Below the pieces are notes generated by a model. It was not told the origin of the DNA. It saw only the letters and a list, made by a program, of their open reading frames with translations, and ran no database searches. A stretch of DNA of 64,000 nucleotides from an uncultured Rhodospirillaceae bacterium. GTDB taxonomy: Bacteria; Pseudomonadota; Alphaproteobacteria; UBA9219. Made by a program: the position numbers and the translations under genes. The stretch spans positions 47,288 to 111,287 of the forward strand of contig CAZFCA010000002.1 of assembly GCA_964517415.1 (NCBI GenBank), written 5' to 3'. Positions 22,775-58,957 of the stretch are shown in pieces; position 1 is the first letter of the stretch, and every line of letters begins with the position of its first letter.

Positions 22775-24226
22775 ATGCTTCTTTCGCAGTTAACAGCCGG
22801 TGTTTCGGAAGGTTCCGATGTCGATGTCACGGGGATCACGGAAGATTCGCGTAAAGTCAAACCAGGATTTCTTTTCATCGCGACGCCCGGAACGAAACAG
22901 AACGGATGCGCCTTTATCGACGACGCCCTTCAAAAAGGCGCCGTCGCCATCGTTGCGCCTGAGGATTTGGAAGCGACCGCGCCAGTTCCAATAGTGAGGA
23001 CTCCCGATGTGCGCATAGCCACCGCCGGCTTGGCGGCGGCATTTTATCCCCGCCAGCCCGAGACGATAGCCGCAGTGACAGGCACGAGCGGTAAAACATC
23101 AACCGCGCAATTCGCGCGCGAAATTTGGCAGGCCTTGGGGCACGCTTCGGCAAGCATCGGGACGCTTGGCCTTGTGACGGCGCAGGGAATGCATTATGGC
23201 GCGCTCACAACGCCGGATGCGATCACGTTTCACCGCCTTCTTGACGATTGCGCGGCTCAGGGAATTACGCATGCGGCCATCGAGGCGTCTAGCCACGGCA
23301 TTGAACTTCATCGATTGGATAAGGCGCGCTTGAAGGCGGGTGCTTTTACGAACCTTTCGCGCGACCATTTGGATCGCTACGGCACAATGGATGCCTATTA
23401 CGCTGCCAAGAGGGGGCTTTTCACGTTCCTGTTGCCTTCGGGGGCCGTTGCTGTCCTAAACGCCGACGTCCCGCAGTTTTCAGAATTGTCGGGAATTGCG
23501 CGGCAACGCGGATTGAAAGTCATTTCTTTTGGCAAAAACGCCGAGGATTTGCGCCTGATCCGTTGCGAGCCAGACTCCAAAGGGCAGATTTTAAGCATCG
23601 AGAGCTTCGGAAAAAGGACCGAGCTTTTGCTTCCTGTCATCGGCGGTTTTCAGGCATGGAACGCCTTATGCGCTGCCGGGCTTGCGATTGGAAGCGGGAG
23701 CGATGCGGAAAAAACGCTCGCCGCGTTGTCGAAAGTTTCCGGCGTTCCCGGCCGTCTTCAATACATCGGCGCGTCGGCGAAGGGCGGCGAAGTATTTGTG
23801 GATTACGCGCATAAGCCTGACGCCTTGGCCAACGTGCTGCGCGCGTTGCGTCCCCATGTGAGGGTTCATGAAGGCGCGAAACTGGGAGTCGTTATCGGCT
23901 GCGGCGGGGATCGCGACAGGGGCAAAAGGCCGATCATGGGGGATATCGCCCAAAAAGAGGCGGATTGGGTGATTGTCACGGACGATAATCCGCGCTCGGA
24001 AAATCCGGCGGCTATTCGCGCCGAGATAGTGGCGGGGTGCGGCGATCTTTCGAACGTCGCCGAAATCGGCGACCGCGCGAAAGCTATTCTGGAAGGCGTG
24101 GACAAGCTGAGGGCGCATGATGTTTTGATTATTGCGGGCAAGGGGCATGAACCCGGACAGATTGTGGGCGATACCGTTTTTCCCTTTGACGATGCGGAGC
24201 AGGCAAGAAAGGCCTTGGGCTTATGA
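22775..24226 (+). CDS. murE: UDP-N-acetylmuramoyl-L-alanyl-D-glutamate--2,6-diaminopimelate ligase MurE
   Basis: 483 aa. The P-loop is VTGTSGKTST. All Mur ligase N, M and C domains are present. The DNPR motif is present. Confidence 0.95.
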   Translation: MLLSQLTAGVSEGSDVDVTGITEDSRKVKPGFLFIATPGTKQNGCAFIDDALQKGAVAIVAPEDLEATAPVPIVRTPDVRIATAGLAAAFYPRQPETIAAVTGTSGKTSTAQFAREIWQALGHASASIGTLGLVTAQGMHYGALTTPDAITFHRLLDDCAAQGITHAAIEASSHGIELHRLDKARLKAGAFTNLSRDHLDRYGTMDAYYAAKRGLFTFLLPSGAVAVLNADVPQFSELSGIARQRGLKVISFGKNAEDLRLIRCEPDSKGQILSIESFGKRTELLLPVIGGFQAWNALCAAGLAIGSGSDAEKTLAALSKVSGVPGRLQYIGASAKGGEVFVDYAHKPDALANVLRALRPHVRVHEGAKLGVVIGCGGDRDRGKRPIMGDIAQKEADWVIVTDDNPRSENPAAIRAEIVAGCGDLSNVAEIGDRAKAILEGVDKLRAHDVLIIAGKGHEPGQIVGDTVFPFDDAEQARKALGL

Positions 24227-25203
24227 CGGCGCCGTTTCTCTGGCTTGCAGATGCTGTTTTTCGCGTTGTTCGGGGCTGGAGTCTGCACGAGCAGACGTGG
24301 GCGGTTTCCGGGCTTTCCGTAGATATCGCCAAGACTAAGCCCGGGGATCTCTTTTTTGCTATCGACGATCCGTTTTTGCGCGGGCACGATTCCGTAGCCG
24401 CAGCCTTTGTTGCCGGCGCAACCGCGGCTGTCGTATCGCGCCAGCCAATGCACGTTCCGTCGACCGCGCCGCTTATCTTCGTCGAGGACACGCGCGCCGC
24501 TCTTTTGGCTTTGGCGCGGGAAGCGCGCCTCAGGACCAAGAGCAAAATATTGGCCGTTGTGGGGAACGCTGAAAGGGAAAGCGTCCGGCAGATGTTGCGT
24601 CTTGCCCTGAGCGCGATTGGAAAGACTTGCGTTTTTGATTGCGCCGAAGGCGCTTCTTTAGGCTTGTATTTGGCTTTGGCCGGCCTGCCGACAGGGGCGG
24701 ACTATGCCGTTTTGGGGCTCGATTTAAGCCATCCATCAGCCGTTATGATGGAGCTTATTCGTCCCGACATCGCTGTGGTGACCCCTGCTGAAGTCCCGCT
24801 TTTCAGAACGAAGGACTTTTTAAAAGGGATGGATCAAGGCGCCGTCGTGATTGCGAACAAAGACGCCGCTCGTCTCGTGGGTGCTGTGGCGAAAAGCCAA
24901 GGCATACGGAAAATTTTGCACTTCTCGGAAAGCGCGAAGGCGGACGCCTGTTTGATAAATTGCGCATTGGCGGGAAAAGAGTACATTGTGAACGCCGTCA
25001 TTCATGGAAAAAAAATCAACTATATGATGAACCTATCCAGCTTAAAGGAAGTGCCTTATTCTTTGGCGGCGATGCTTGCGGCGGTCGAAGCTGGCGGAAA
25101 GGGAGAAGTATGCGCTGCGGCTCTGCTGGGATATAGAGCGGCGCCGCTCAGCGGGAAGGAGGAGGCGTTTTCCGCGCCTTACGCCAATAAAAACATCACC
25201 TAA
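24223..25203 (+). pseudogene. MurF-like relic: truncated Mur ligase with a degenerate active site (intact ORF, 326 aa)
   Basis: The N-terminal MurF-like domain is present. The central domain is partial, and the P-loop GxxGKT is replaced by VVGNAERES. The C-terminal domain is absent. Only 990 bp separate the murE stop from the mraY start, where about 1.4 kb would be expected. Confidence 0.6.
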
Positions 25204-25212
25204 GGACTTTCT

Positions 25213-26298
25213 ATGCTTTTTCACGCTTTTACGCCCTTCGCTCATGATTTCATTCTGTTCAATCTGTTCAGGTACATCACGTTCCGGACGGGGTGCGCCA
25301 TGGCGACTTCTCTTCTGGTTTGTTTTATCTTTGGCCCCCGCATCATTCGCTGGCTGAAAAGCAAGCAGGGCGACGGGCAACCCATTCGCGACGATGGGCC
25401 GGAAACCCACCTCAAGAAAAAAGGCACGCCGACGATGGGCGGCCTGATGATCCTGATTTCCGTGATCGTGAGCACGCTTTTGTGGGCGGATTTGTCGAAC
25501 GTATATACATGGGCAGTCATAGCTGTGACGCTTGGGTTCGGCTCGGTCGGTTTTTTCGACGACTACAAGAAGCTGACGAAGCGTTCTTCCCACGGCGTGT
25601 CCGGCCGCGCTCGATTGGCTATTCAAGTTATCATCGCTGCCCTTGCCGTCTATTTTATTACTCAGGCGGCGCCGCCGTTGACGGCTAATGCCGTGGCTAT
25701 TCCGTTCGTCAAGGATTTCATGCTGCGGCTGGGGGTGTTTTTCGTGCCCTTCGCCGTGTTCGTCATTATCGGCGCAAGCAACGCCGTCAATTTAACCGAT
25801 GGCTTGGATGGGCTTGCCGCCGTTCCGGTTATTATCGCCGCGCTTTGCTTTATGATTATCGCTTATCTTGCGGGGAATTATACGTTCGCCAATTATTTGC
25901 AAATCCACCACGTTCAAGGGGCGGGGGAGCTGGCTGTGTTTTGCGGCGCCCTTGTAGGCGCTTGCTTGGGGTTCTTGTGGTTCAATGCCCCGCCTGCGCA
26001 GGTTTTTATGGGCGATACCGGCTCTCTTGCGCTTGGCAGCGCCCTTGGAACAATTTCCGTTATCATCAAGCATGAACTTGTGCTGGCCATCGTCGGCGGC
26101 CTTTTTGTTGTCGAGACGCTATCCGTCGTCATTCAGGTCGCTTCGTTCAAGCTGACTGGAAAGCGCGTTTTTCGCATGGCGCCCATTCATCATCATTTCG
26201 AAAAAATGGGTTGGTCCGAGTCCACGGTCGTCATACGGTTCTGGATCATTGCCTGCGTTTTAGGATTAATTGGCCTTTCCACTTTGAAATTGAGGTAA
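25213..26298 (+). CDS. mraY: phospho-N-acetylmuramoyl-pentapeptide transferase MraY
   Basis: 361 aa and polytopic. MraY motifs are [13 protein letters not shown] and the catalytic HHHF region. Confidence 0.95.
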
Positions 26299-26302
26299 TG
26301 GG

Positions 26303-27625
26303 GTGAAAACATTTGATTTTTTTAAAGATAAAACAGTGACGCTGATGGGGCTTGGTTTGCTTGGCAGGGGCGTGGGAGACGCGGCCTTTTTGGCGCGGCA
26401 GTGCAAAAAAGTTTTTGTGACGGACGCTAAAAGCAAAGAAGAGCTTCAAAAGTCGGTCGAAGCTCTTAAAGAATTCAGGAATATCGAATTTTTTCTGGGC
26501 GGCCACGATACCAAGATATTCGAGAACGTCGATTTCGTCGTCAAGGGTGCGGGCGTGCGGCTTGACAACCCTTATATCGCCCATGCGAAAGAAAAAAACG
26601 TCCCCGTATACATGAGCACGGCTTTGTTCGCACATTTGGCGCCTCTGAAGGTCGTCGGCGTGACGGGCACGCGGGGAAAGACAACGACGACCTGCATGAT
26701 CGGGGATATTCTTAAGCGCGCGGGCAAGAAGGTCATGATGGGGGGAAATCTTCGCGGCGTTTCGACCCTCGCGCTGCTGGAGGAAGCCGAAAACTTCGAC
26801 TATGCCGTGCTCGAGCTGGATTCATGGCAGTTGCAGGGCTTCGACGGCTTTGGCATAAGCCCGACGATTGGCGTCTTCACGACCTTTTACCCAGACCACA
26901 TGAATTATTATGACGGCGACATGGCTCTTTATCGGCGCGATAAAGCGGCGATATTCAGGCACCAGAAAGAAGGGGATGCGTTCGTCACAACGCCGGAAGT
27001 GGCTGAGCTTCTTAAGGCAAACGGGGAAACGGACGTCCTTCGTTCGAAAATGATTCTGGCGGAACCTCTGTCGCCTTCTTTCGTTTTAAATGTTCCAGGC
27101 AGGCATAATTTAATCAACGCTTCCTTGGCAAAGGGGGCGGCCAAGGCCTGCGGCATAGGCGACGGCATTATCGATGAGGCGCTGCGGAATTTTGATGCCA
27201 TCGAGGGAAGGCTTCAGCGCGTTGGCCAGTGGCAGGGCAGGACATTCTACAACGACTCGAACGCGACGACGCAAGAGGCGACCTTAGCCGCCTTGGCTTC
27301 CTTTCCGCCGCAGTCGATAGTTTTGATATTTGGAGGCGCCGACAAAGGGCTGCCTATCGACGGGCTGATCGATAGCCTTTCCACGAACGGCATTCGCGCT
27401 GTTTTAATCAAAGGCACGGGGACGGATCGCGTTCTGCAAAAATTGCCGCATGTCCCGGTGGCAAGCACGATGCAAGAGGCGTTTAAAACGGCCGTCGATT
27501 TATCGAAGATGGGCGATCATGTCATTTTGAGCCCTGCCTTCGCCTCCTTCGGCGTGTTCAAGAACGAATACGACAGAAGCGATCAATACATGCAGGAAGT
27601 TAGAAATCAGGAGGCGCAGAAGTAA
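26303..27625 (+). CDS. murD: UDP-N-acetylmuramoylalanine--D-glutamate ligase MurD
   Basis: 440 aa. The P-loop is GVTGTRGKTTTT. The N-terminus is Rossmann-like. Confidence 0.95.
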   Translation: MKTFDFFKDKTVTLMGLGLLGRGVGDAAFLARQCKKVFVTDAKSKEELQKSVEALKEFRNIEFFLGGHDTKIFENVDFVVKGAGVRLDNPYIAHAKEKNVPVYMSTALFAHLAPLKVVGVTGTRGKTTTTCMIGDILKRAGKKVMMGGNLRGVSTLALLEEAENFDYAVLELDSWQLQGFDGFGISPTIGVFTTFYPDHMNYYDGDMALYRRDKAAIFRHQKEGDAFVTTPEVAELLKANGETDVLRSKMILAEPLSPSFVLNVPGRHNLINASLAKGAAKACGIGDGIIDEALRNFDAIEGRLQRVGQWQGRTFYNDSNATTQEATLAALASFPPQSIVLIFGGADKGLPIDGLIDSLSTNGIRAVLIKGTGTDRVLQKLPHVPVASTMQEAFKTAVDLSKMGDHVILSPAFASFGVFKNEYDRSDQYMQEVRNQEAQK

Positions 27626-27626
27626 G

Positions 27627-28748
27627 ATGGCGACTCTGGCGCGGTCGGACAGGTCTATTTTGGGGCGATGGTGGTGGACCGTCGACCGCTGGGCGTTGGC
27701 GGCCATTGTCGTCATTATGGGTTTCGGCATTCTGCTCATTCAGGCGTCCACGCCCGCCATTGCGGCCAAACACGGGTGGAGCCATCTCTATTTCGTCGAG
27801 AGGCATTTAGCCATGCTGCTGCCCGCCGTGGCGGTGATCTTTTCCGTTTCTCTTTTGTCGCCGCAAAAGATCCGCGTTCTTTCCGCGGCGTTGCTGACTT
27901 TGTTCCTGCCGCTTTTGATGATAACGCCTTTCATCGGGGCCGAGATCAAGGGCGCCGTAAGGTGGCTTCAACTGCCCGGGTTTTCGATTCAGGCTTCCGA
28001 GTTTGTAAAACCCGTGTTCGCCGTTACTGCCGCGTGGCTTTTTACGCGCCAATGTGAGCGGCGCGGTTTTCCTGCGCTGAGCGTCAATCTAAGCCTTTAC
28101 CTTCTGATTTTAGTTTTTTTGTTGTTGCAGCCGGACATCGGCATGGCTTTTCTTGTTTCCGCCATTTGGTTCGGCCAATATTTTCTTGCCGGATTGCCGG
28201 TGGCTTTCGTCGGGATAAGCCTGTTTGGCGGAATCGCGTCGCTTGTCGCCGCTTATTACGCTTTCCCGCATTTTTCGGCGCGCATGGATAAATTCCTTAG
28301 CCATACGGGCGATACCTATCAGGTTGATCGTGCGCTCAGCGCGTTTGCGAACGGAGGCTGGCTGGGAACGGGGCCGGGCGAAGGCACGATCAAAAGGTCC
28401 ATTCCCGATGCGCACGCCGATTTTATTTTTGCGGTAGCAGGCGAAGAGCTGGGACTGCTTTGGTGCCTGCTTATTATCGGCCTGTTTGCCTTTATCGTTT
28501 TAAGAGGCCTTCTGCGCCTGAAGTCGGAAAACAGCCTTTTCATTGTTCTGGCCGTGAGCGGGCTTCTTGTCGAATTTGGGTTGCAGACCGTTATTAATCT
28601 GACTTCGACTATGCGCCTTATGCCCGCGAAGGGAATGACGCTGCCGTTCATTTCCTATGGAGGGTCGTCTCTTTTCGCCTTGGCCATCGGCATGGGGATG
28701 ATGCTCGCGCTGACAAGAAAGCGCTTTGGTTTGACGGGAAGGAATTAG
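27627..28748 (+). CDS. ftsW: peptidoglycan glycosyltransferase FtsW (SEDS family)
   Basis: 373 aa with 10 TM helices. SEDS motifs are present, including DFIF and the GxGG region. Confidence 0.9.
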   Translation: MATLARSDRSILGRWWWTVDRWALAAIVVIMGFGILLIQASTPAIAAKHGWSHLYFVERHLAMLLPAVAVIFSVSLLSPQKIRVLSAALLTLFLPLLMITPFIGAEIKGAVRWLQLPGFSIQASEFVKPVFAVTAAWLFTRQCERRGFPALSVNLSLYLLILVFLLLQPDIGMAFLVSAIWFGQYFLAGLPVAFVGISLFGGIASLVAAYYAFPHFSARMDKFLSHTGDTYQVDRALSAFANGGWLGTGPGEGTIKRSIPDAHADFIFAVAGEELGLLWCLLIIGLFAFIVLRGLLRLKSENSLFIVLAVSGLLVEFGLQTVINLTSTMRLMPAKGMTLPFISYGGSSLFALAIGMGMMLALTRKRFGLTGRN

Positions 28749-29158
28749 CAAGCGTTCTTCGTCTTGCTTTCCCAATAACGATCTATCGCCTCGCCAATTT
28801 TTGCCTTGTCGAAAGGTTTGGTGATGAATCCGTCCGTGTGGTTAAAAGCTGCTTCTTCGCGATCTGCGGAATAATCGTTGCCTGTGGCCATGATGACATA
28901 GGTGCCTTGGTTATCTTTTTTGATGCGATAGGCAAGGTCGTGTCCTGTGCCGTCCGGAAGGGAAATATCCAAAAAGGCGATATTGGGACGGACCTTTTTA
29001 TACATCTCCCATCCCTCTTTAACAGTGGCGGCCAGCGCGATGGTATGTTCGCTCTCAAAGAGATTTAGAAAAATTTTTCTAATGAAGGCGCTATCCTCGA
29101 CGACAAGAAGACGCAAGGCGGGGCGCACCGGCGTTGATTTGATTTTTTCTTCAACCAT
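28745..29158 (-). CDS. single-domain response regulator (receiver only)
   Basis: 137 aa. It is a paralog of 21348-21761, with the aligned segments LVVEDSAFIRKIF...AFLDISLPDGTG...TKPF. It is convergent with ftsW and overlaps it by 4 bp. Confidence 0.85.
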   Translation of the reverse strand: MVEEKIKSTPVRPALRLLVVEDSAFIRKIFLNLFESEHTIALAATVKEGWEMYKKVRPNIAFLDISLPDGTGHDLAYRIKKDNQGTYVIMATGNDYSADREEAAFNHTDGFITKPFDKAKIGEAIDRYWESKTKNAC

Positions 29159-29293
29159 CGGATATCTCCCTCGTATGGGGCGGCGTGAATAAACTAATGG
29201 AAAATGGTTAAAAAAGAGGATAAGTAATAAGCATGCATTATGCTTACGTTCTTGTAGGGCTTTTCTTTCCGGATTAAAAATTCGTTAATGCCC

Positions 29294-29322
29294 CTTGAAA
29301 GCATTTATAAGATGACCTATCT
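29294..29322 (+). promoter_or_regulatory. candidate RpoH (sigma-32)-type heat-shock promoter of groESL
   Basis: The sequence is CTTGAAA, an 18-nt spacer, then CCTATCT. This approximates the alphaproteobacterial sigma-32 consensus CTTG-N17-18-CYTATNT. It lies about 50 nt upstream of the groES ATG. Confidence 0.4.
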
Positions 29323-29375
29323 CCATCCTACTGAACTTTTTGGCTTTATTGCTTAACCTTTTGAGGAGAGTCCCC

Positions 29376-29696
29376 ATGAAATTCCGTCCCCTGCATGACC
29401 GCGTTGTCGTTCGCCGTTTGGAAGGCGACCAAAAGACTGCGGGAGGCATCATTATTCCCGATACCGCCAAGGAAAAGCCTCAGGAAGGCGAAGTCGTCGC
29501 TGTCGGCCCAGGCGCGCGTGATGAGGAAGGACATGTTCATCCCTTAGACGTTAAAGCTGGCGACCGCATCTTGTTTGGCAAATGGTCCGGCACGGAAGTC
29601 AAAATCGACGGCGAAGAACTGCTTATCATGAAGGAGAGTGATATTCTTGGCGTGGTCGGCTGCTGCTCGGGCGGCGCCTGCAAGCACAAGAAGTAA
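29376..29696 (+). CDS. groES: co-chaperonin GroES with a short Cys/His-rich C-terminal tail
   Basis: The start was re-derived to the ATG at 29376, which is preceded by GAGGAGAG. The protein is 106 aa. A canonical GroES core is followed by [12 protein letters not shown]. Confidence 0.95.
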
Positions 29697-31391
<1,695 letters not shown>

Positions 31392-35624: not shown

Positions 35625-36668
<1,044 letters not shown>

Positions 36669-36686
36669 CAAGGCGGGGAGGGACAG

Positions 36687-37337
36687 ATGGCACGGGCACA
36701 GCATTTCAGTAAGAGTTCGACGCGAGGGTTTACGCTTACCGAGGTGGCGATTGTCCTTTGCATCTTCAGCATCATCCTTGGGGGCATATGGGCTTACACA
36801 TCCTCAATGAAAAACAGCCTGAAGCATGAGCAGTTCAGCCAGCTTCTTGTCACGCTTACGAACAATATACGCGGCAGCTATGCGGGAAGGACGTCGTTTG
36901 ATCACACCAACGCGGATACAATGATGCCTCTCCTCATGCAAAAGGGCGTTTTCCCTGCTGATATGGTCAAAAGAACAGGAACCCGCTCGGTTGCCATTTC
37001 TCCTTTTGGAGAATTTACTCCAAGCCCGACCGGGAATTTGACTTATAAATCCATTTATATATGCGGATGGAAGGCGAAAGACAGCACACGCTGTGTTTTT
37101 GGAGGAGGAGAGGCAGACGTTCCCTTGTTCGCCATCGAAACGGTGATGAAGCACAGCGATTGTATTACAGCAGCCGTCAGGAATTCAAATCCGGTTCATT
37201 TTCCCGGTCTTGTGGGCGTTTATGTTAACGGGGCTCAGGTTCTGCCACTTCCTGTAACGACAGGGGCGGCTGCGGATGCGTGTCGCGGAGGCACTGGCGT
37301 TAGCTATATCGATTTTGTCTTTAAACTTGTGCCGTAA
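36687..37337 (+). CDS. type IV pilin / pseudopilin-like protein (prepilin N-terminal cleavage/methylation domain)
   Basis: The N-terminus MARAQHFSKSSTRG^FTLTEVAIVLCIFSIILGGIW is a class III signal, with Gly at -1, Phe at +1 and Glu at +5 followed by a hydrophobic helix. There are four Cys in the C-terminal half. It lies 19 bp downstream of mreB. Confidence 0.7.
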   Translation: MARAQHFSKSSTRGFTLTEVAIVLCIFSIILGGIWAYTSSMKNSLKHEQFSQLLVTLTNNIRGSYAGRTSFDHTNADTMMPLLMQKGVFPADMVKRTGTRSVAISPFGEFTPSPTGNLTYKSIYICGWKAKDSTRCVFGGGEADVPLFAIETVMKHSDCITAAVRNSNPVHFPGLVGVYVNGAQVLPLPVTTGAAADACRGGTGVSYIDFVFKLVP

Positions 37338-46066: not shown

Positions 46067-46657
46067 TTACATTTCCAAAAAATTTTTCAAAAGCAGAGCC
46101 CCGGCATGGCTTGATCGCTCGGGATGGAATTGGCAACCGAAAAAGTTTTTATATTGGGCGACAGCCGTGAAAGAGTCTCCATAGGCGCAAGTTGCCAGAG
46201 CGTTGTTGCTAACATCCGCCGCAAAGCTGTGGACGAAATAAAAATAGCTTTGATCGGCAAGAGCATGGAAAAGGGGGCTGTTTTTGCGGAAATCGACTGC
46301 ATTCCATCCCATGTGCGGGATGGATAAATTCTTCGGCTTTAATAGTTTTATCTGTCCCGGAATAACGCCAAGGCATGCGCAGCCTTCGCCTTCATCGGAA
46401 AAGGAAAAAAGCATTTGCATGCCAAGGCAGATTCCTAAAACGGGCTGGGACAGACGGCGCAAAACGTCCGAAAGGTTATAAGCGTTTAAGCGATCCATGG
46501 CGGCCGGCGCGGATCCGACGCCGGGTAGAATGACATGCGAAGCTCTTCGAATAGCCTCGGCATCCTTTGTTACTTGGGCGTCGGCCTTCAGTCGCTTGAG
46601 AGCAGCAAGGACCGAAGCTAAATTTGCTACTCCGCTATCGACTATGGCTACCGTCAT
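46067..46657 (-). CDS. hisH: imidazole glycerol phosphate synthase glutamine amidotransferase subunit HisH
   Basis: It is a class I GATase. The catalytic Cys is in GICLGMQ and the His is in HPE. Confidence 0.9.
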   Translation of the reverse strand: MTVAIVDSGVANLASVLAALKRLKADAQVTKDAEAIRRASHVILPGVGSAPAAMDRLNAYNLSDVLRRLSQPVLGICLGMQMLFSFSDEGEGCACLGVIPGQIKLLKPKNLSIPHMGWNAVDFRKNSPLFHALADQSYFYFVHSFAADVSNNALATCAYGDSFTAVAQYKNFFGCQFHPERSSHAGALLLKNFLEM

Positions 46658-48315
46658 AGCGCTCCCTTTGTAGATGGAAAAGCCTTTCCTTCGCGCCGGA
46701 GGGCTTGCCTTAAGACTCGCCCTGCGGCTTTGAACAAAGCCTCGATCATGTGATGCGTGTTCGTTCCTTGCACAGACATGTGCATGGTGGCTTTTAAGGC
46801 GTTCGCGAAGGATTGGAAAAAATGCGGCACCATATCGCTGGGCATCTCACCGGCAAAGGCGGCGGGAAATTTTCCGGTCATTTTGAAAAACGGACGGCCG
46901 GACAGATCTATGACTGCTTGCGCTAAAGCCTCATCCAAGGGGGCGAAAAATCCGTAGCGGCCAAGGCCGCACTTGTCCCCCAAGGCTTTTTGAAGGGCTT
47001 TGCCAAGCGCCAAAGCGCAATCTTCTATCGTATGATGCGGGTCGACGCGCAAATCGCCTTGACAATTGAGAACGAGGCCGAAGCCGCCATGCTTGGCGAT
47101 TTGCTCCAGCATGTGGTCGAAAAAGCCGATGCCGGTTTGTATGTGAATCAAATTCGCGTTGTCGAGATTCACCGTTACGTTAACCTCGGTCTCTTTTGTC
47201 GCGCGGCGAAGGCTGTAAAGGCGTTCGTTTGGGTCGTCTTTGCCGGCAATTTCGACGCCCAAGGCGCCGAGGACAAGATCGTTTTCTTCCGGCGTTCCGA
47301 TGGAAAAGCGAACCGAATCAGCGATTTCGCCGCTTCTGTCGCGCGCCAGGATGCCGAAGCTCTTGAGGCGCTGCATCGTCTTTTTTGCGCTTGTTGTCCT
47401 AGCTAACAGAAAATTTGCTTCGCTTGGATAAACGCTTTCAATGAACAAAGACTTTGGAAGCAACCGAGCCATGCGCTTTCGTTCCGAAACGATCAGCCTT
47501 CTGCGCGCCGCGTTGTGGGCCAGGCCGTTTGCGCTTAACGCGTCCAACGCGGATTTTATGCTTGTTTGTGCAAGGGGGTAGGGGGCGATTATTTTCGCCA
47601 GCAAGCGGACGACTTGCTTTGAGGCGATAACCGCGCCGACGCGCTCGCCGGCAAGGGCGTGCGCTTTCGAGAGAGTTCGTAAAACGACAAGATTAGGCGT
47701 TTTTTTTAAATCGGGAAGCATGCCCGAAGGAGCATCGGAAAATTCAATGTAGGCTTCGTCGACGACAATAAGGCTTTTTTTTTGTCGCGCCGCGCAAAGA
47801 GCCAGAATATCCTTGCGCCGCATCAGATGCCCCATGGGCGCGTTCGGTGAGGGAATGAAGACGAGTTTTGTTTGCGGCGCGCAGTTTTTTAGAATAGAGC
47901 GGACGTTAAGCTGTCCATTTTCTTTAAGCGGCGCCTTGATGATTTTCGCGCCCTGAATCACTGCGGCGACTTGATACATGCCGTAAGTCGGCGGGCAGAT
48001 AAGAATTTGATCTTTTTCGGCGCTGCAAAGCAGACGGATCAGGACATCGATGCCTTCGTCGCTGCCGCGGCTTAAAAGGATATGTTCTGCGGGGATGTTC
48101 CAAAGGGCGGAAAGACGATCAAGCACCTTTTGGGGCTGCGCCTCGGGATAGCGGTTCAACGCGCACGCTTCGGATGCGAAACCGAACGGCGGCCAAGGAA
48201 ATTCGTTCGCATCGATGCTGATATCCGGCAAAAAACCTTCGGATTCCGAACGGGCGGAGCTATAGGCCGCGGCCTTTAAAAGATCGGGGCGAACAAGATT
48301 TTCAAGCCAGGTCAT
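46654..48315 (-). CDS. bifunctional fusion: histidinol-phosphate aminotransferase (HisC, N-terminal) fused to imidazoleglycerol-phosphate dehydratase (IGPD, C-terminal)
   Basis: It is a single 553-aa ORF. Residues 1 to about 365 are an aminotransferase class I/II domain carrying the PLP lysine in LRTLSKAHALAG. A short linker follows. Residues from about 385 to 553 are an IGPD domain (TKETEVNVTVNLD...GFFDHMLEQIAKHG...DPHHTIED). Confidence 0.85.
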   Translation of the reverse strand: MTWLENLVRPDLLKAAAYSSARSESEGFLPDISIDANEFPWPPFGFASEACALNRYPEAQPQKVLDRLSALWNIPAEHILLSRGSDEGIDVLIRLLCSAEKDQILICPPTYGMYQVAAVIQGAKIIKAPLKENGQLNVRSILKNCAPQTKLVFIPSPNAPMGHLMRRKDILALCAARQKKSLIVVDEAYIEFSDAPSGMLPDLKKTPNLVVLRTLSKAHALAGERVGAVIASKQVVRLLAKIIAPYPLAQTSIKSALDALSANGLAHNAARRRLIVSERKRMARLLPKSLFIESVYPSEANFLLARTTSAKKTMQRLKSFGILARDRSGEIADSVRFSIGTPEENDLVLGALGVEIAGKDDPNERLYSLRRATKETEVNVTVNLDNANLIHIQTGIGFFDHMLEQIAKHGGFGLVLNCQGDLRVDPHHTIEDCALALGKALQKALGDKCGLGRYGFFAPLDEALAQAVIDLSGRPFFKMTGKFPAAFAGEMPSDMVPHFFQSFANALKATMHMSVQGTNTHHMIEALFKAAGRVLRQALRREGKAFPSTKGAL

Positions 48316-56298: not shown

Positions 56299-56443
56299 TC
56301 CTCGCAACCGCTTGTGACCTAAACGAGTCAGTGCATTGTGCCGTTGTATTAATTAAATCTTATGAGCGCGCACGGTTGGTAACTTTTTAATAACCATAAT
56401 TTTCTACGATCATTTGCTTTATCTATTCTGCGATTGGCAGGCT

Positions 56444-58957
56444 ATGTCCGCAATTATCGTTCTTAACGAAAACAAGTGCGTTGGATGCAACAAATGCATC
56501 GCTCATTGCCCTGTCGAGGGGGCTAATGTCGCGTATCTGAAGGACGGCCAGAATAAAGTTCGCACGAATTCCCACAAATGCATCCTTTGCGGAAAATGCA
56601 TTGCCGTTTGCGATCATGGCGCGCGCGACTATTACGACGGAACGGACGCCTTTTTCGACGCTTTGGCGCAAGGCGAGAAGATATCGGTCATAGCCGCCCC
56701 TTCGATACGTTTTAATTTCGACAAGTATAAAAAGCTTTTCGGCTTTTTAAAAAGCCGCGGCGTCAATCATATTTATGACGCCTCCTTCGGCGCGGATATA
56801 GCGACGTGGGGTTATCTGAAGGCCATTAAGGAACAGGATTTAAAGTCCGTCATCGCTCAGCCGTGCCCGCCGATAGTCTCGTATATCGAAAAGCATTGCC
56901 CGGAACTGATCGAAAAATTATCCCCTGTGCAAAGCCCCGCGCTTTGCACGGCCATCTATATGAGGAAGCACAAAAACATTTCAGATAAACTGGCTTTTAT
57001 CTCTCCGTGCCTCAGCAAAACCCAGGAATTCGCCGACACGGACAACGTGGTTTCATATAACGTCACCTATAATAAGTTGACGCAATATATGGCCAAGCAA
57101 AAACTGCGCTGCGACATGCAGGTTGAAATGGATTTTGACAGCGAGGAATGCGGGCTGGGGTTGACTTTTTCCCGCCCGGGGGGGCTGAGCGAAAACATCC
57201 ATTATCATACGAAAGGCCAGGCATGGGTCAGACAAATCGAAGGAATTGATAAAGTTTACGATTATCTGGAGGAGTACGCGAAAAGAAAAAAAGACGGGAA
57301 GAAACTGCCGCTTATACTGGATATCCTAAACTGTTCTCACGGGTGCAACATCGGGAACGCGACGTGCCAAACCGCTTGTGTCGACGATGTCGATGAGAAA
57401 ATGCAATGGCTTAAAGAGGAAAAACTAAAAAATGCGGAAAAGGAAAAATTCGGACGCATCGTTTACAGTCTGTTCGAAAAATTCGACAAGGAATTGGATT
57501 GGAGGGATTTTGTTCGCCGTTATGAAGATAAATCCGATTCTCCCGAAGAACAGCGGTTTTTGCCGATTGAATACGATGCCGTCTATAAAACGCTTTACAA
57601 AAACGATCAGGCTAGCCGCAATGTGAACTGTATTTCCTGTGGCTATGGAAATTGCCGCGATTTCGCCACCGCCATATTGAAAGGGGACAATCACCCGGGA
57701 AACTGCATCCGCTATAACAGCGCCATGACGAATGAAGAGCGGCAAAAGAAGGAAGAGAATTTTAGAATAGCCATTGAAAACGCCAACATAGCCAATCGGG
57801 CAAAATCCGAATTTCTGGCCAATATGTCGCACGAGCTAAGAACGCCCTTAAACAGCATTTTGGGAATGAACAAGCTTTTGCAGGGCATGAATCTGTCGGA
57901 AGATCAAAAGGGCCTGATTGACGTGATGTACCGTTCGTCGGTGAATTTGCTGGATCTTGTCAACGATATTCTGGATCTTTCCAAGATCGAAGCCGGCAAG
58001 ATGAGCCTTGAGCGCATCGGGTTCGATCCGGCGTATGTTCTTGATGGCGTCATACATGCAATGAATCCTTTGGCGGACGAAAAGCTGCTGCGGATCGTGA
58101 CTCATTATAACGAAGGAGATTTTCCCTATGTGCTCGGTGATCCTGCGCGTCTTTTGCGCATTTTAATGAATTTGGTCGGGAACGCGGTAAAATACACGGA
58201 AAAGGGACGCGTAGACATCGCCGCTTCATCCAGACGGCTGGACGATATCCGGGTCGAATTGCGTTTCGAGGTCACGGATACCGGCATCGGCATATCCGAA
58301 GAAAAGCAAAAGGGCATTTTTGAAAAATTTGTCCAAGCCGATACGTCAACGACCCGCAAATACGGAGGAACAGGTTTAGGCCTTGCGATCACGAAGGAAT
58401 TGGTCGAGCTGATGGGCGGCATAATCGGGGTGCGCAGCAAAGAAGATGTCGGATCGACGTTTTGGTTTGCCATTCCTTTCGAAATAACGGACAAGCTGCA
58501 CGAGCAGAAATACATGCGTGCTCAAAAAATGCTTCTAGGAACGATTCTGCCTCAGAAGGCGAACATCCTAGTCGCCGAAGACCATCCGTTAAATCAAATC
58601 CTTGTAAGGAAATTGCTTCAAAAATTCGGCATTGGGCATTTTAAAATTGTCGAAAACGGTCAAGAAGTCGTCGATGTTTGGAAGCAGGAAAGCTGGGACG
58701 TTATTCTAATGGACTGTCATATGCCGAAGAAAAGCGGCTATGATGCGACGGAAGAAATACGGCAACTGGAAAAGGAAACAGGGGCGCATACTCCCGTCGT
58801 TGCCATGACCGCGAACGCCATGATCGGAGATCGGGAAAAATGCCTTCGGTGCGGCATGGACGAATATATCAGCAAGCCGATAAACTTTGACGAACTGCAA
58901 AAAATATTAGGCCAATGGATTCACTTGGCCAGCGCGCCGGAAGAGGCGATTAGCTGA
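56444..58957 (+). CDS. hybrid sensor histidine kinase with an N-terminal sensory [FeFe]-hydrogenase-like (HydS-type) domain: 2x[4Fe-4S] ferredoxin motifs, H-cluster domain, Cx2Cx4Cx16C motif, HisKA, HATPase_c, REC
   Basis: The two ferredoxin motifs are CVGCNKCIAHCP and CILCGKCIAVCD. The H-domain motifs read AQPCPPI for TSCCPGW, SPCLSKTQE for MPCxxKxxE, and ILNCSHGCNIG for ExMxCxxGC. A CISCGYGNC-x16-C motif follows. The H-box is MSHELRTPLN. The HATPase N and G boxes read NLVGNAVKYT, DTGIGI and GGTGLGL. The C-terminal receiver has the phospho-acceptor Asp in ILMDCHMP. The first ATG is at 56444; the track start at 56414 is TTG. Confidence 0.8.
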   Translation: MSAIIVLNENKCVGCNKCIAHCPVEGANVAYLKDGQNKVRTNSHKCILCGKCIAVCDHGARDYYDGTDAFFDALAQGEKISVIAAPSIRFNFDKYKKLFGFLKSRGVNHIYDASFGADIATWGYLKAIKEQDLKSVIAQPCPPIVSYIEKHCPELIEKLSPVQSPALCTAIYMRKHKNISDKLAFISPCLSKTQEFADTDNVVSYNVTYNKLTQYMAKQKLRCDMQVEMDFDSEECGLGLTFSRPGGLSENIHYHTKGQAWVRQIEGIDKVYDYLEEYAKRKKDGKKLPLILDILNCSHGCNIGNATCQTACVDDVDEKMQWLKEEKLKNAEKEKFGRIVYSLFEKFDKELDWRDFVRRYEDKSDSPEEQRFLPIEYDAVYKTLYKNDQASRNVNCISCGYGNCRDFATAILKGDNHPGNCIRYNSAMTNEERQKKEENFRIAIENANIANRAKSEFLANMSHELRTPLNSILGMNKLLQGMNLSEDQKGLIDVMYRSSVNLLDLVNDILDLSKIEAGKMSLERIGFDPAYVLDGVIHAMNPLADEKLLRIVTHYNEGDFPYVLGDPARLLRILMNLVGNAVKYTEKGRVDIAASSRRLDDIRVELRFEVTDTGIGISEEKQKGIFEKFVQADTSTTRKYGGTGLGLAITKELVELMGGIIGVRSKEDVGSTFWFAIPFEITDKLHEQKYMRAQKMLLGTILPQKANILVAEDHPLNQILVRKLLQKFGIGHFKIVENGQEVVDVWKQESWDVILMDCHMPKKSGYDATEEIRQLEKETGAHTPVVAMTANAMIGDREKCLRCGMDEYISKPINFDELQKILGQWIHLASAPEEAIS

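What the first reader, a model, noticed from the sequence alone, without database searches (positions are those of the whole stretch)
24223..25203. Catalytically dead, truncated MurF relic retained in operon position between murE and mraY
Seen directly: the ORF in the murF slot is only 326 aa. Its start overlaps the murE stop (ATGA), and it ends 9 bp before mraY. It keeps a MurF-like N-terminal domain, but the Mur-ligase P-loop GxxGKT(T/S) reads VVGNAERES, with no Lys or Thr. The NxNN(D)xG and GRxE motifs and the entire C-terminal domain are missing. There is physically no room for a full-length murF. Established: MurF adds D-Ala-D-Ala and is essential wherever pentapeptide peptidoglycan is made. 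Inference: either a functional murF exists elsewhere and this is a decaying duplicate still carried by the operon, or the organism has modified stem-peptide synthesis.
Basis: partly seen in the sequence, partly recalled or inferred. Interest (0 to 1): 0.6.

Follow-up and report, generated by a model that had tools for sequence, protein, structure and literature searches.

The report
Dead, shortened MurF kept under selection
The gene that should encode the last cytoplasmic cell-wall ligase (MurF) here encodes a shortened, catalytically dead protein that evolution has nevertheless preserved, probably because a second, membrane-anchored MurF-type enzyme encoded elsewhere now does the chemistry.

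Summary
ORF 24223..25203 (326 aa) fills the murF slot between murE and mraY. It is homologous to the N-terminal and central domains of alphaproteobacterial MurF. It lacks the P-loop Lys/Thr, the other catalytic motifs and the whole C-terminal domain.

It is not an assembly error: four independent assemblies carry identical DNA. It is not a decaying duplicate either. It is the original murF in place, and the short form survives in three syntenic lineages (66% and 47% aa identity). dN/dS is 0.27 (bootstrap 0.19-0.36) at dS 0.87. None of 5000 neutral simulations kept the frame open. The predicted fold is confident (pLDDT 90).

Related uncultured Alphaproteobacteria show a graded series: canonical MurF, full-length but motif-degenerate forms, and several independent truncated dead forms.

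In a relative, one 196,678-bp contig carries both a truncated dead MurF in the dcw slot and a membrane-anchored MurF-like ligase ("MurF2"). MurF2 sits in a ddl / M15-peptidase / hydrolase / MurF2 / ftsQA cluster. Every MurF2 locus that reaches the murE-mraY interval has a degenerate or relic murF there.

Best reading: a MurF-derived pseudoenzyme retained after displacement by a paralogue. I could not show that MurF2 is present in this genome.

The parts
22775..24226 (+). murE (UDP-MurNAc-dipeptide:meso-DAP ligase), intact; its stop overlaps the start of the MurF-derived ORF (ATGA)
   Evidence: NCBIfam PRK00139.1-2 at 590.8 bits against a cut-off of 476. All three Pfam Mur ligase domains are hit. 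dN/dS is 0.125 against the L005 orthologue.
24223..25203 (+). MurF-derived two-domain protein (326 aa): N-terminal and central domains only, all catalytic motifs lost
   Evidence: The AF2 model has pLDDT 90.3 and pTM 0.87. The best PDB fold matches are MurF 4CVM and 1GG4 with TM about 0.75 normalised to the query. dN/dS is 0.27.
24223..24300 (+). N-terminal 'cap' (res 1-26, ...RGWSLHEQTW), the most conserved part of the protein
   Evidence: For residues 1-27, 59% of positions are invariant among the three short orthologues, and 12 of 15 canonically conserved residues are retained. In stand-alone MurFs this cap covers the hydrophobic patch that MurE covers in the B. pertussis MurE-MurF fusion (PMC10214165).
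24553..24585 (+). Dead P-loop AVVGNAERESV (canonical AVTGSVGKTSTKE)
   Evidence: The P-loop is also dead, but with different residues, in the orthologues L005 (AVSGTAARASV) and P0163 (AVLGIEGLHSM).
24643..24867 (+). Degenerate catalytic half of the central domain (former NNHWG, E-x-G-MNHAGE, H-x-E and NRDN motifs; 8-10 residue deletion)
   Evidence: Motif table. This is the least conserved region of the protein: 29% of positions are invariant across the three orthologues, and 40 of 62 canonically conserved columns now vary.
24970..25134 (+). Derived, strongly conserved block AGKEYI...INYMMNLSSLKEVPYSLAAMLAA...CAAALLGY (res 250-304)
   Evidence: Local dN/dS is 0.14-0.18. The block is shared by the window, L005 and P0163 but differs from the canonical G-x-P-G-x-H-x-V-x-N-S-L motif.
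25135..25212 (+). Disordered tail, stop codon and the mraY ribosome-binding region (..ANKNIT* TAAGGA)
   Evidence: pLDDT is below 50 for residues 311-326. The stretch ACGCCAATAAAAAC, followed after six variable bases by TAAGG, is conserved at DNA level in L062, and the tail resembles the 3' end of full-length murF in relatives.
25213..26298 (+). mraY, intact and very strongly conserved
   Evidence: Pfam Glycos_transf_4 and the MraY signature are hit. dN/dS is 0.036.
26303..27625 (+). murD, intact
   Evidence: TIGR01087 at 298 bits against a cut-off of 212.
27627..28748 (+). ftsW; the cluster ends here, with no murG, murC, murB, ddl or ftsQAZ downstream
   Evidence: Pfam FTSW_RODA_SPOVE. A response regulator on the opposite strand and groES/groEL follow.

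Best explanation
The ORF is an intact gene for a non-catalytic descendant of MurF (a pseudoenzyme).

Shown:
- It derives from the ancestral murF in place.
- It has lost the ATP-, Mg- and substrate-binding motifs and, apparently by an in-frame deletion, the whole D-Ala-D-Ala-binding domain 3.
- It has since been held under purifying selection as a folded module of N-terminal plus central domains. This holds across at least three lineages whose synonymous sites are saturated.

Inferred:
- D-Ala-D-Ala addition is now done by another enzyme.
- The most likely candidate is a membrane-anchored MurF-type ligase ('MurF2'). MurF2 has 4-5 N-terminal transmembrane helices in place of the UDP-binding domain and an intact P-loop. 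It is encoded beside ddl, an M15 (VanX-like) peptidase and an alpha/beta hydrolase elsewhere in the genome.

More weakly inferred, the remnant persists for one or both of two reasons:
(a) It must be translated so that mraY stays translationally coupled to murE. The ATGA overlap and the ribosome-binding site around the stop codon at its 3' end are conserved.
(b) Its cap and domain-1 surface still serve as a structural partner of MurE or MraY.

Its UDP-binding motifs are not conserved, so substrate binding is unlikely.
For: Homology and loss of motifs.

In-place origin: 17 relatives carry a full-length (465-481 aa) murF, canonical or motif-degenerate, between murE and mraY.

Selection:
- dN/dS is 0.27 (CI 0.19-0.36) at dS 0.87, against 0.125 for murE and 0.036 for mraY.
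- Canonical MurF pairs give 0.07-0.16.
- 0 of 5000 neutral simulations keep the ORF.
- There is a single one-codon indel between the window and L005.

Third orthologue: P0163 (334 aa) lies in a fully syntenic 210-kb MAG contig. MurE is 76%, MraY 89% and GroEL 94% identical to the window, but this protein only 47%. The ATGA overlap and the tail are conserved.

Fold: pLDDT 90.

Recurrence: several further short dead forms exist. P0003 (337 aa), P0164, P0169, P0173, P0176 and P0278 are 305-338 aa, and there are also full-length degenerate forms.

Replacement enzyme:
- Contig Ga0326728_10000313 carries both truncated P0169, in ftsI-murE-X-mraY, and MurF2, in ddl / M15 / hydrolase / MurF2 / ftsQ / ftsA.
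- L056, L059, L060, L070, L071, L073, L075, L076 and L150 all combine MurF2 with a degenerate or relic murF.
- MurF2 is linked to ddl, to a hydrolase or to both in most of the 80 metagenome loci.
- Its closest sequence family and closest folds are MurF.
Against: MurF2, or any other MurF, was not found for this organism. Its genome is not among the GTDB representatives that were scanned, and no candidate could be tied to its samples.

The one direct co-occurrence is in a different subclade.

MurF2 also occurs in cultured Alphaproteobacteria. Whether their canonical MurF is intact was not checked, so MurF2 may have another role.

Other MurF2 lineages keep only a C-domain relic in the slot. That argues against a single specific protein function for what is retained, and favours the translational-coupling explanation.

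No expression or interaction data exist.
Confidence: 0.6

Rival explanations
1. Neutral pseudogene: a decaying relic that merely has not yet been deleted.
For: All catalytic motifs and domain 3 are gone. The protein evolves two to four times faster than canonical MurF. The clade shows a graded series of degeneration.
Against: dN/dS is 0.27 with a CI that excludes 1. None of 5000 neutral simulations keeps the frame. The same length, junctions and derived motifs persist in three lineages with saturated synonymous sites. The predicted fold is confident.
Confidence: 0.04
2. Translated spacer only. The ORF is kept because ribosomes must read through it to couple mraY translation to murE. The amino-acid constraint reflects only the need for a harmless, foldable product, and the protein has no role of its own.
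For: The ATGA overlap, the 9-nt spacer and the TAAGG(A) ribosome-binding site around the stop codon are conserved, and the 3' tail is conserved at DNA level. In other lineages the slot keeps a different piece of MurF, the C-terminal domain of about 130-150 aa, equally tightly packed between murE and mraY.
Against: Constraint is uneven. It is strongest in the cap and in a derived 55-residue block shared by three lineages. A short ORF would serve coupling as well as one of 326 codons. In L065 the truncated gene is separated from mraY by 248 bp.
Confidence: 0.22
3. No D-Ala-D-Ala addition at all: the organism exports tripeptide (or otherwise modified) precursors and builds an unusual or uncross-linked wall.
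For: No functional murF or ddl lies in the 64-kb window, and ftsI is not upstream of murE.
Against: murE, mraY, murD, ftsW and mreB are intact and strongly constrained. The genome is not reduced: it has histidine biosynthesis, pckA and lnt. A relative with a dead truncated MurF keeps ftsI, ddl and MurF2. Established knowledge: DD-transpeptidation needs a D-Ala-D-Ala terminus.
Confidence: 0.1
4. Split enzyme: the remnant supplies the missing UDP-binding domain 1 in trans to MurF2, which lacks one.
For: MurF2 has no domain 1. The remnant keeps domain 1 and its cap better than its catalytic core.
Against: The D-S-R and G-H-D motifs of domain 1 are not conserved among the three orthologues. Many MurF2 lineages keep no domain 1 at all, only a C-domain relic.
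Confidence: 0.04

Closest known systems
Canonical MurF (UDP-MurNAc-tripeptide:D-Ala-D-Ala ligase; E. coli 1GG4, P. aeruginosa 4CVK/4CVM; NCBIfam PRK14093 / TIGR01143)
   Same: Common ancestry, the same operon slot, and the same fold for domains 1 and 2 (TM about 0.75, 23-25% identity).
   Different: No P-loop Lys/Thr, no NNH, E-x-G or H-x-E motifs, and no domain 3. Scores are far below the family cut-offs. It cannot bind ATP or D-Ala-D-Ala in the canonical way.
B. pertussis MurE-MurF lacking domain 6 (PDB 8F5D; PMC10214165)
   Same: A MurF lacking its last ~142 residues (its C-terminal domain) is a stable, crystallisable unit. The MurF N-terminal hydrophobic surface contacts the C-terminus of MurE.
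   Different: That form is a proteolytic laboratory product of an active fused enzyme. Here the truncation is genomic, the protein is separate from MurE, and its active site is destroyed.
Plant MurE-like subunit of the plastid-encoded RNA polymerase (chains 8R6S_Q, 8XZV_J)
   Same: A Mur-ligase fold reused as a structural protein. These chains appear among the fold matches. That they are non-catalytic is from my own knowledge.
   Different: It descends from MurE rather than MurF, is eukaryotic, is full length, and works in an unrelated complex.
Membrane-anchored MurF-like ligase 'MurF2' (annotated in databases as MurF or 'Mur ligase family protein')
   Same: It is a paralogue, and MurF is its closest family and fold. 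It is the probable functional replacement.
   Different: Transmembrane helices replace domain 1, its motifs are intact, and it lies in a ddl / M15 / hydrolase module. It is not encoded in this window.

Membership tests
MurF ligase (TIGR01143 / PRK14093) | Significant homology to MurF rather than to other Mur ligases | tested here: met
   The best NCBIfam hits are MurF models (E=4e-42), ahead of MurE models (E=8e-13). The top PDB sequence and fold matches are all MurF.
MurF ligase (TIGR01143 / PRK14093) | Score above the curated family cut-off | tested here: not met
   144 bits against 544 (PRK14093) and 83 bits against 288.6 (TIGR01143).
MurF ligase (TIGR01143 / PRK14093) | ATP-binding P-loop G-x-x-G-K-T/S | tested here: not met
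   The sequence is AVVGNAERESV, with no Lys or Thr.
MurF ligase (TIGR01143 / PRK14093) | Central-domain metal and substrate motifs (NNHWG, E-x-G-MNHAGE, E-A-x-H-L-E) | tested here: not met
   All are replaced or deleted. Pfam Mur_ligase_M is not detected.
MurF ligase (TIGR01143 / PRK14093) | C-terminal domain (Pfam PF02875) that binds D-Ala-D-Ala | tested here: not met
   The profile match stops at position 325 of 479. No remnant lies downstream or elsewhere in the window.
MurF ligase (TIGR01143 / PRK14093) | Position between murE and mraY | tested here: met
Neutral pseudogene | dN/dS near 1, frame disruptions and length variation among orthologues | tested here: not met
   dN/dS is 0.27 (CI 0.19-0.36). 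The frames are intact at 325, 326 and 334 aa in three lineages.
Pseudoenzyme (non-catalytic homologue kept by selection) | Catalytic residues lost, yet purifying selection acts and a stable fold is predicted | tested here: met
Pseudoenzyme (non-catalytic homologue kept by selection) | A demonstrated non-catalytic function (binding partner or regulatory role) | not testable with these tools
   This needs interaction or genetic experiments.
Paralogue displacement by MurF2 | A MurF2-type ligase encoded in the same genome | not testable with these tools
   It is shown only for relatives: the same contig, and the same locus. The genome of the window is not held in the collections I could still search.

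The most novel reading that the evidence does not exclude
In a broad set of uncultured Alphaproteobacteria, the last 'cytoplasmic' step of peptidoglycan precursor synthesis has moved to the membrane.

On this reading, a transmembrane MurF2 without a UDP-binding domain adds the dipeptide made by its co-encoded Ddl. The co-encoded VanX-like M15 peptidase edits that dipeptide pool. MurF2 may act on lipid-linked tripeptide after MraY.

The canonical murF would then be repeatedly recycled into non-catalytic remnants. The two-domain protein in this window would be a selected structural adaptor between MurE, MraY and MurF2.
Probability: 0.15. Interest if true: 0.88.

Novelty: new variant of a known kind. 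Interest (0 to 1): 0.62.

Why it matters
MurF is treated as a universal, essential antibiotic target wherever pentapeptide peptidoglycan is made. Here its gene has become a selected, non-catalytic two-domain protein, and this has happened repeatedly in related lineages.

The comparison also exposes a widespread membrane-anchored MurF-type ligase. It is tightly linked to ddl, and wherever it could be checked it goes with loss of canonical MurF. I found nothing about it in the searched literature.

If that ligase is the replacement, three things follow:
- It is a case of displacement of an essential wall enzyme by a paralogue.
- It raises the question of which substrate, UDP-linked or lipid-linked, a MurF without a UDP-binding domain uses.
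- It warns that annotation pipelines both miss dead MurFs and mislabel the replacement.

Tried and rejected
- Assembly artefact: rejected, because four independent assemblies carry identical ORF DNA.
- A hidden C-terminal domain, a frameshifted continuation or a second murF in the window: none found.
- Identifying the source genome: the one GTDB scan returned only relatives at 45% identity or less.
- Linking MurF2 to this organism:
  - The listing of cluster members returned no accession numbers.
  - Tetranucleotide distance singled out L091 (0.0123 to the window). However, the closest relative of its MurF2 lies in a non-clade genome, so I discounted it.
  - Candidates P0313 and P0390 came from other organisms and samples.
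  - Matching contig lengths worked for P0315 and P0169 but found nothing for the window lineage.
  - Window proteins have no close matches in the 80 MurF2 loci.
- A C-domain remnant after the truncated gene in L065: none, only a repeat element.
- Literature: searches for truncated, pseudoenzyme or paralogous MurF, and for dcw variation in Alphaproteobacteria, found nothing relevant.
- The promoter and terminator scan of the operon gave no promoter-like site and no convincing terminator between murE and mraY.
Full report
**What is there**

The window carries a short cell-wall cluster on the + strand: murE (22775..24226), a 326-codon ORF (24223..25203), mraY (25213..26298), murD (26303..27625) and ftsW (27627..28748). 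A response regulator on the other strand and groES/groEL follow. The ORF starts in an ATGA overlap with the murE stop. It ends 9 nt before mraY, and AAGGA overlaps its stop codon and continues into the spacer.

**Homology and what has been lost**

The protein matches the alphaproteobacterial MurF model PRK14093 at E=4e-42. The score is only 144 bits against a cut-off of 544, and only profile positions 1-325 of 479 are covered. The Pfam central and C-terminal Mur-ligase domains are not detected. E. coli MurF (1GG4) residues 24-314 align with residues 28-308.

Alignment with full-length relatives shows these changes:
- P-loop TGSVGKTSTKE is now VGNAERESVRQ.
- NNHWG is GASLG.
- FEMGMNHAGE is LGLDLSHPS.
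- The EAVHLEFF...DAKAE segment is shortened by 8-10 residues.
- Everything after the last helix of the central domain is missing.

tblastn with a full-length relative, and with its C-terminal domain alone, finds nothing else in the 64 kb.

**Not an artefact**

Exactly this protein is called on five contigs from different sequencing runs. The four I fetched have ORF DNA identical to the window.

**Not a duplicate and not neutral decay**

In 17 related genomes a 465-481-aa murF, canonical in most and motif-degenerate in three, occupies the same slot between murE and mraY. The short gene is therefore the original murF, altered where it sits.

Two further lineages have the same short form in the same syntenic context:
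- P0002 (L005/L006): 325 aa, 66% identity.
- P0163 (L062): 334 aa, 47% identity. It lies on a 210-kb contig of MAG GCA_964453225.1 that is collinear with the window from ftsK to rph. MurE is 76%, MraY 89%, FtsW 88% and GroEL 94% identical.

Selection between the window and L005:
- The gene has dS 0.87 and dN/dS 0.27 (bootstrap 0.19-0.36).
- murE gives 0.125, mraY 0.036 and rsmE 0.10.
- There is one single-codon indel.
- None of 5000 neutral simulations at that divergence kept the frame open.

Canonical MurF pairs in the clade give 0.07-0.16. Constraint is therefore relaxed two- to four-fold but is clearly present. Against L062 the synonymous sites are saturated, yet length, the ATGA overlap and the tail are conserved. 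The tail reads ..ANKN(I/A)(T/N)* with TAAGG, and the 14-base stretch ACGCCAATAAAAAC just upstream of the stop is identical.

The AlphaFold model is confident: pLDDT 90.3, pTM 0.87, with only residues 311-326 disordered. Its best matches in the PDB are MurF structures, with TM about 0.75 when normalised to the query.

**Where the constraint lies**

Among the three orthologues the invariant fraction differs by region:

| Region | Invariant positions |
|---|---|
| N-terminal cap (residues 1-27) | 59% |
| Domain 1 | 48% |
| Former catalytic half of the central domain | 29% |
| Second half of the central domain | 45% |

The second half includes a derived block (res 250-304, AGKEYI...YMMNLSSLKEVPYSLA...ALLGY). 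This block differs from canonical MurF but is shared by all three orthologues, with local dN/dS 0.14-0.18. The D-S-R and G-H-D motifs of domain 1 are not conserved among the three, so I do not think UDP-substrate binding is retained.

The last codons and the ribosome-binding region resemble the 3' end of full-length murF in relatives. That suggests a clean in-frame deletion of domain 3. This point is tentative.

**The wider pattern**

An exhaustive HMMER search found more short forms of 305-338 aa with dead P-loops: P0164, P0169, P0173, P0176 and P0278. P0003 (337 aa) had already turned up. Where context was available, they are complete genes directly after murE.

In a neighbour-joining tree the short forms fall in at least three or four separate places (long-branch effects are possible). 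Other relatives (L007, L020, L030, P0165-P0168, P0170) are full length but have lost the central-domain motifs.

This group of uncultured Alphaproteobacteria (record titles: 'Alphaproteobacteria' or 'Rhodospirillaceae' MAGs) therefore shows a series: canonical MurF, then full-length degenerate forms, then truncated dead forms.

**What probably replaced it**

A distant hit, P0023, is a 414-aa degenerate MurF in the dcw slot of GCA_020442385.1. It led to a second ligase between murB and ddl in the same cluster. I call this ligase MurF2. Its features are:
- about 530-555 aa;
- 4-5 N-terminal hydrophobic helices in place of domain 1;
- an intact GKT P-loop and intact central- and C-domain motifs;
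- a best family match to MurF (TIGR01143, 215 bits);
- best fold matches to MurF.

The family is large. Most of the 80 metagenome loci place it next to a divergently transcribed ddl of about 400 aa, an alpha/beta hydrolase, or both, and an M15 (VanX-type) peptidase lies between ddl and the hydrolase in the three annotated module loci that carry it (L147, L150, L151).

Every locus that also reaches the murE-mraY interval has a degenerate MurF or only a relic of about 130-150 aa there:
- L056, L059, L060, L070, L071, L073, L075 and L076;
- L150.

In those lineages the relic is a conserved remnant of the C-terminal domain.

The key case is inside the window's own wider clade. Contig Ga0326728_10000313 (196,678 bp) carries two clusters about 90 kb apart:
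- mraZ-mraW-ftsL-ftsI-murE-[P0169, 312 aa, dead and truncated]-mraY-ftsW-murG-murC-murB;
- ligA / ddl / M15 / hydrolase / MurF2 / ftsQ / ftsA.

**What is not shown**

I could not find MurF2, ddl or any other murF for the organism of this window. Its genome is not among the GTDB representatives that were scanned. The remaining look-ups hit other organisms.

MurF2 also occurs in cultured Alphaproteobacteria. I could not examine their canonical MurF, so the replacement role is an inference from gene linkage and co-occurrence, not a demonstration. Nothing relevant was found in the literature searches.

**Mechanism**

The gene is a MurF-derived pseudoenzyme. That statement has high confidence.

D-Ala-D-Ala addition is probably done by MurF2 elsewhere in the genome. 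I put that at about 0.65, given that the intact and highly constrained murE, mraY, murD, ftsW and mreB indicate a working wall pathway.

Why the remnant is kept is open. Two readings remain:
- Translational coupling of mraY to murE. This is supported by the conserved junctions, and by the fact that other lineages keep a different MurF fragment in the same tight slot.
- A structural role through the cap and domain-1 surface. In the B. pertussis fusion this surface is the MurE contact (PMC10214165). The uneven constraint and the derived conserved block support this reading.

**Verdict**

It is wrong on 'decaying duplicate'. This is a new variant within a known family, and the associated MurF2 module deserves follow-up in its own right.

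Noticed in passing
L147 7139-11602; L056 18202-20606; L059, L060, L150, L151; L067-L146: A conserved module: ddl (about 400-416 aa, divergent strand), often a Peptidase_M15 (VanX-like), an alpha/beta hydrolase, and a membrane-anchored MurF-like ligase whose UDP-binding domain is replaced by transmembrane helices. It is widespread in Alphaproteobacteria (GC 25-74%) and accompanies a degenerate or relic canonical murF wherever that could be checked.
   Followed up: partly
L060 18676-19122 (-); L070, L071, L073, L075, L076 between murE and mraY: In lineages where MurF2 lies inside the dcw cluster, the murF slot holds a conserved protein of about 130-150 aa. It is a remnant of the MurF C-terminal domain, the opposite half from the one kept in the window.
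   Followed up: partly
L009 12778-16838; also L007 and L014, between mraY and ftsW: A GNAT acetyltransferase, an MR_MLE-type (Ala-Glu epimerase-like) enzyme, a 466-aa protein with no Pfam match and a divergent MurD (26-31% to the window MurD) are inserted in the cluster. This may be an L-Glu-adding MurD2 plus epimerase route.
   Followed up: no
L015 11607-13880; L065 11188-13391; L150 1360-3615: murD is absent from its usual place between mraY and ftsW in several relatives.
   Followed up: no
window 28745-31391, compared with L010, L012, L015 and L065: In the window lineage the dcw cluster is split. There is no mraZ, mraW, ftsL or ftsI upstream of murE; rsmE and a response regulator lie there on the opposite strand instead. 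Nothing follows ftsW except a response regulator and groES/groEL.
   Followed up: partly
window 46654-48315 (-): A 553-aa fusion of a class I/II aminotransferase (HisC-like) with imidazoleglycerol-phosphate dehydratase (HisB), inside the his operon.
   Followed up: no
window 56414-58957 (+): An 847-aa hybrid sensor kinase. Its N-terminus carries 4Fe-4S and [FeFe]-hydrogenase large-subunit domains, followed by HisKA, HATPase and receiver domains.
   Followed up: no
window 35625-37337 (+): mreB is followed by a 216-aa protein with a prepilin-type N-terminal motif and then by hisS, not by mreC and mreD.
   Followed up: no
L065 10939-11188: The 248-bp spacer after the independently truncated murF (P0169) contains a repeat-element-like sequence and no trace of the C-terminal domain.
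   Followed up: yes
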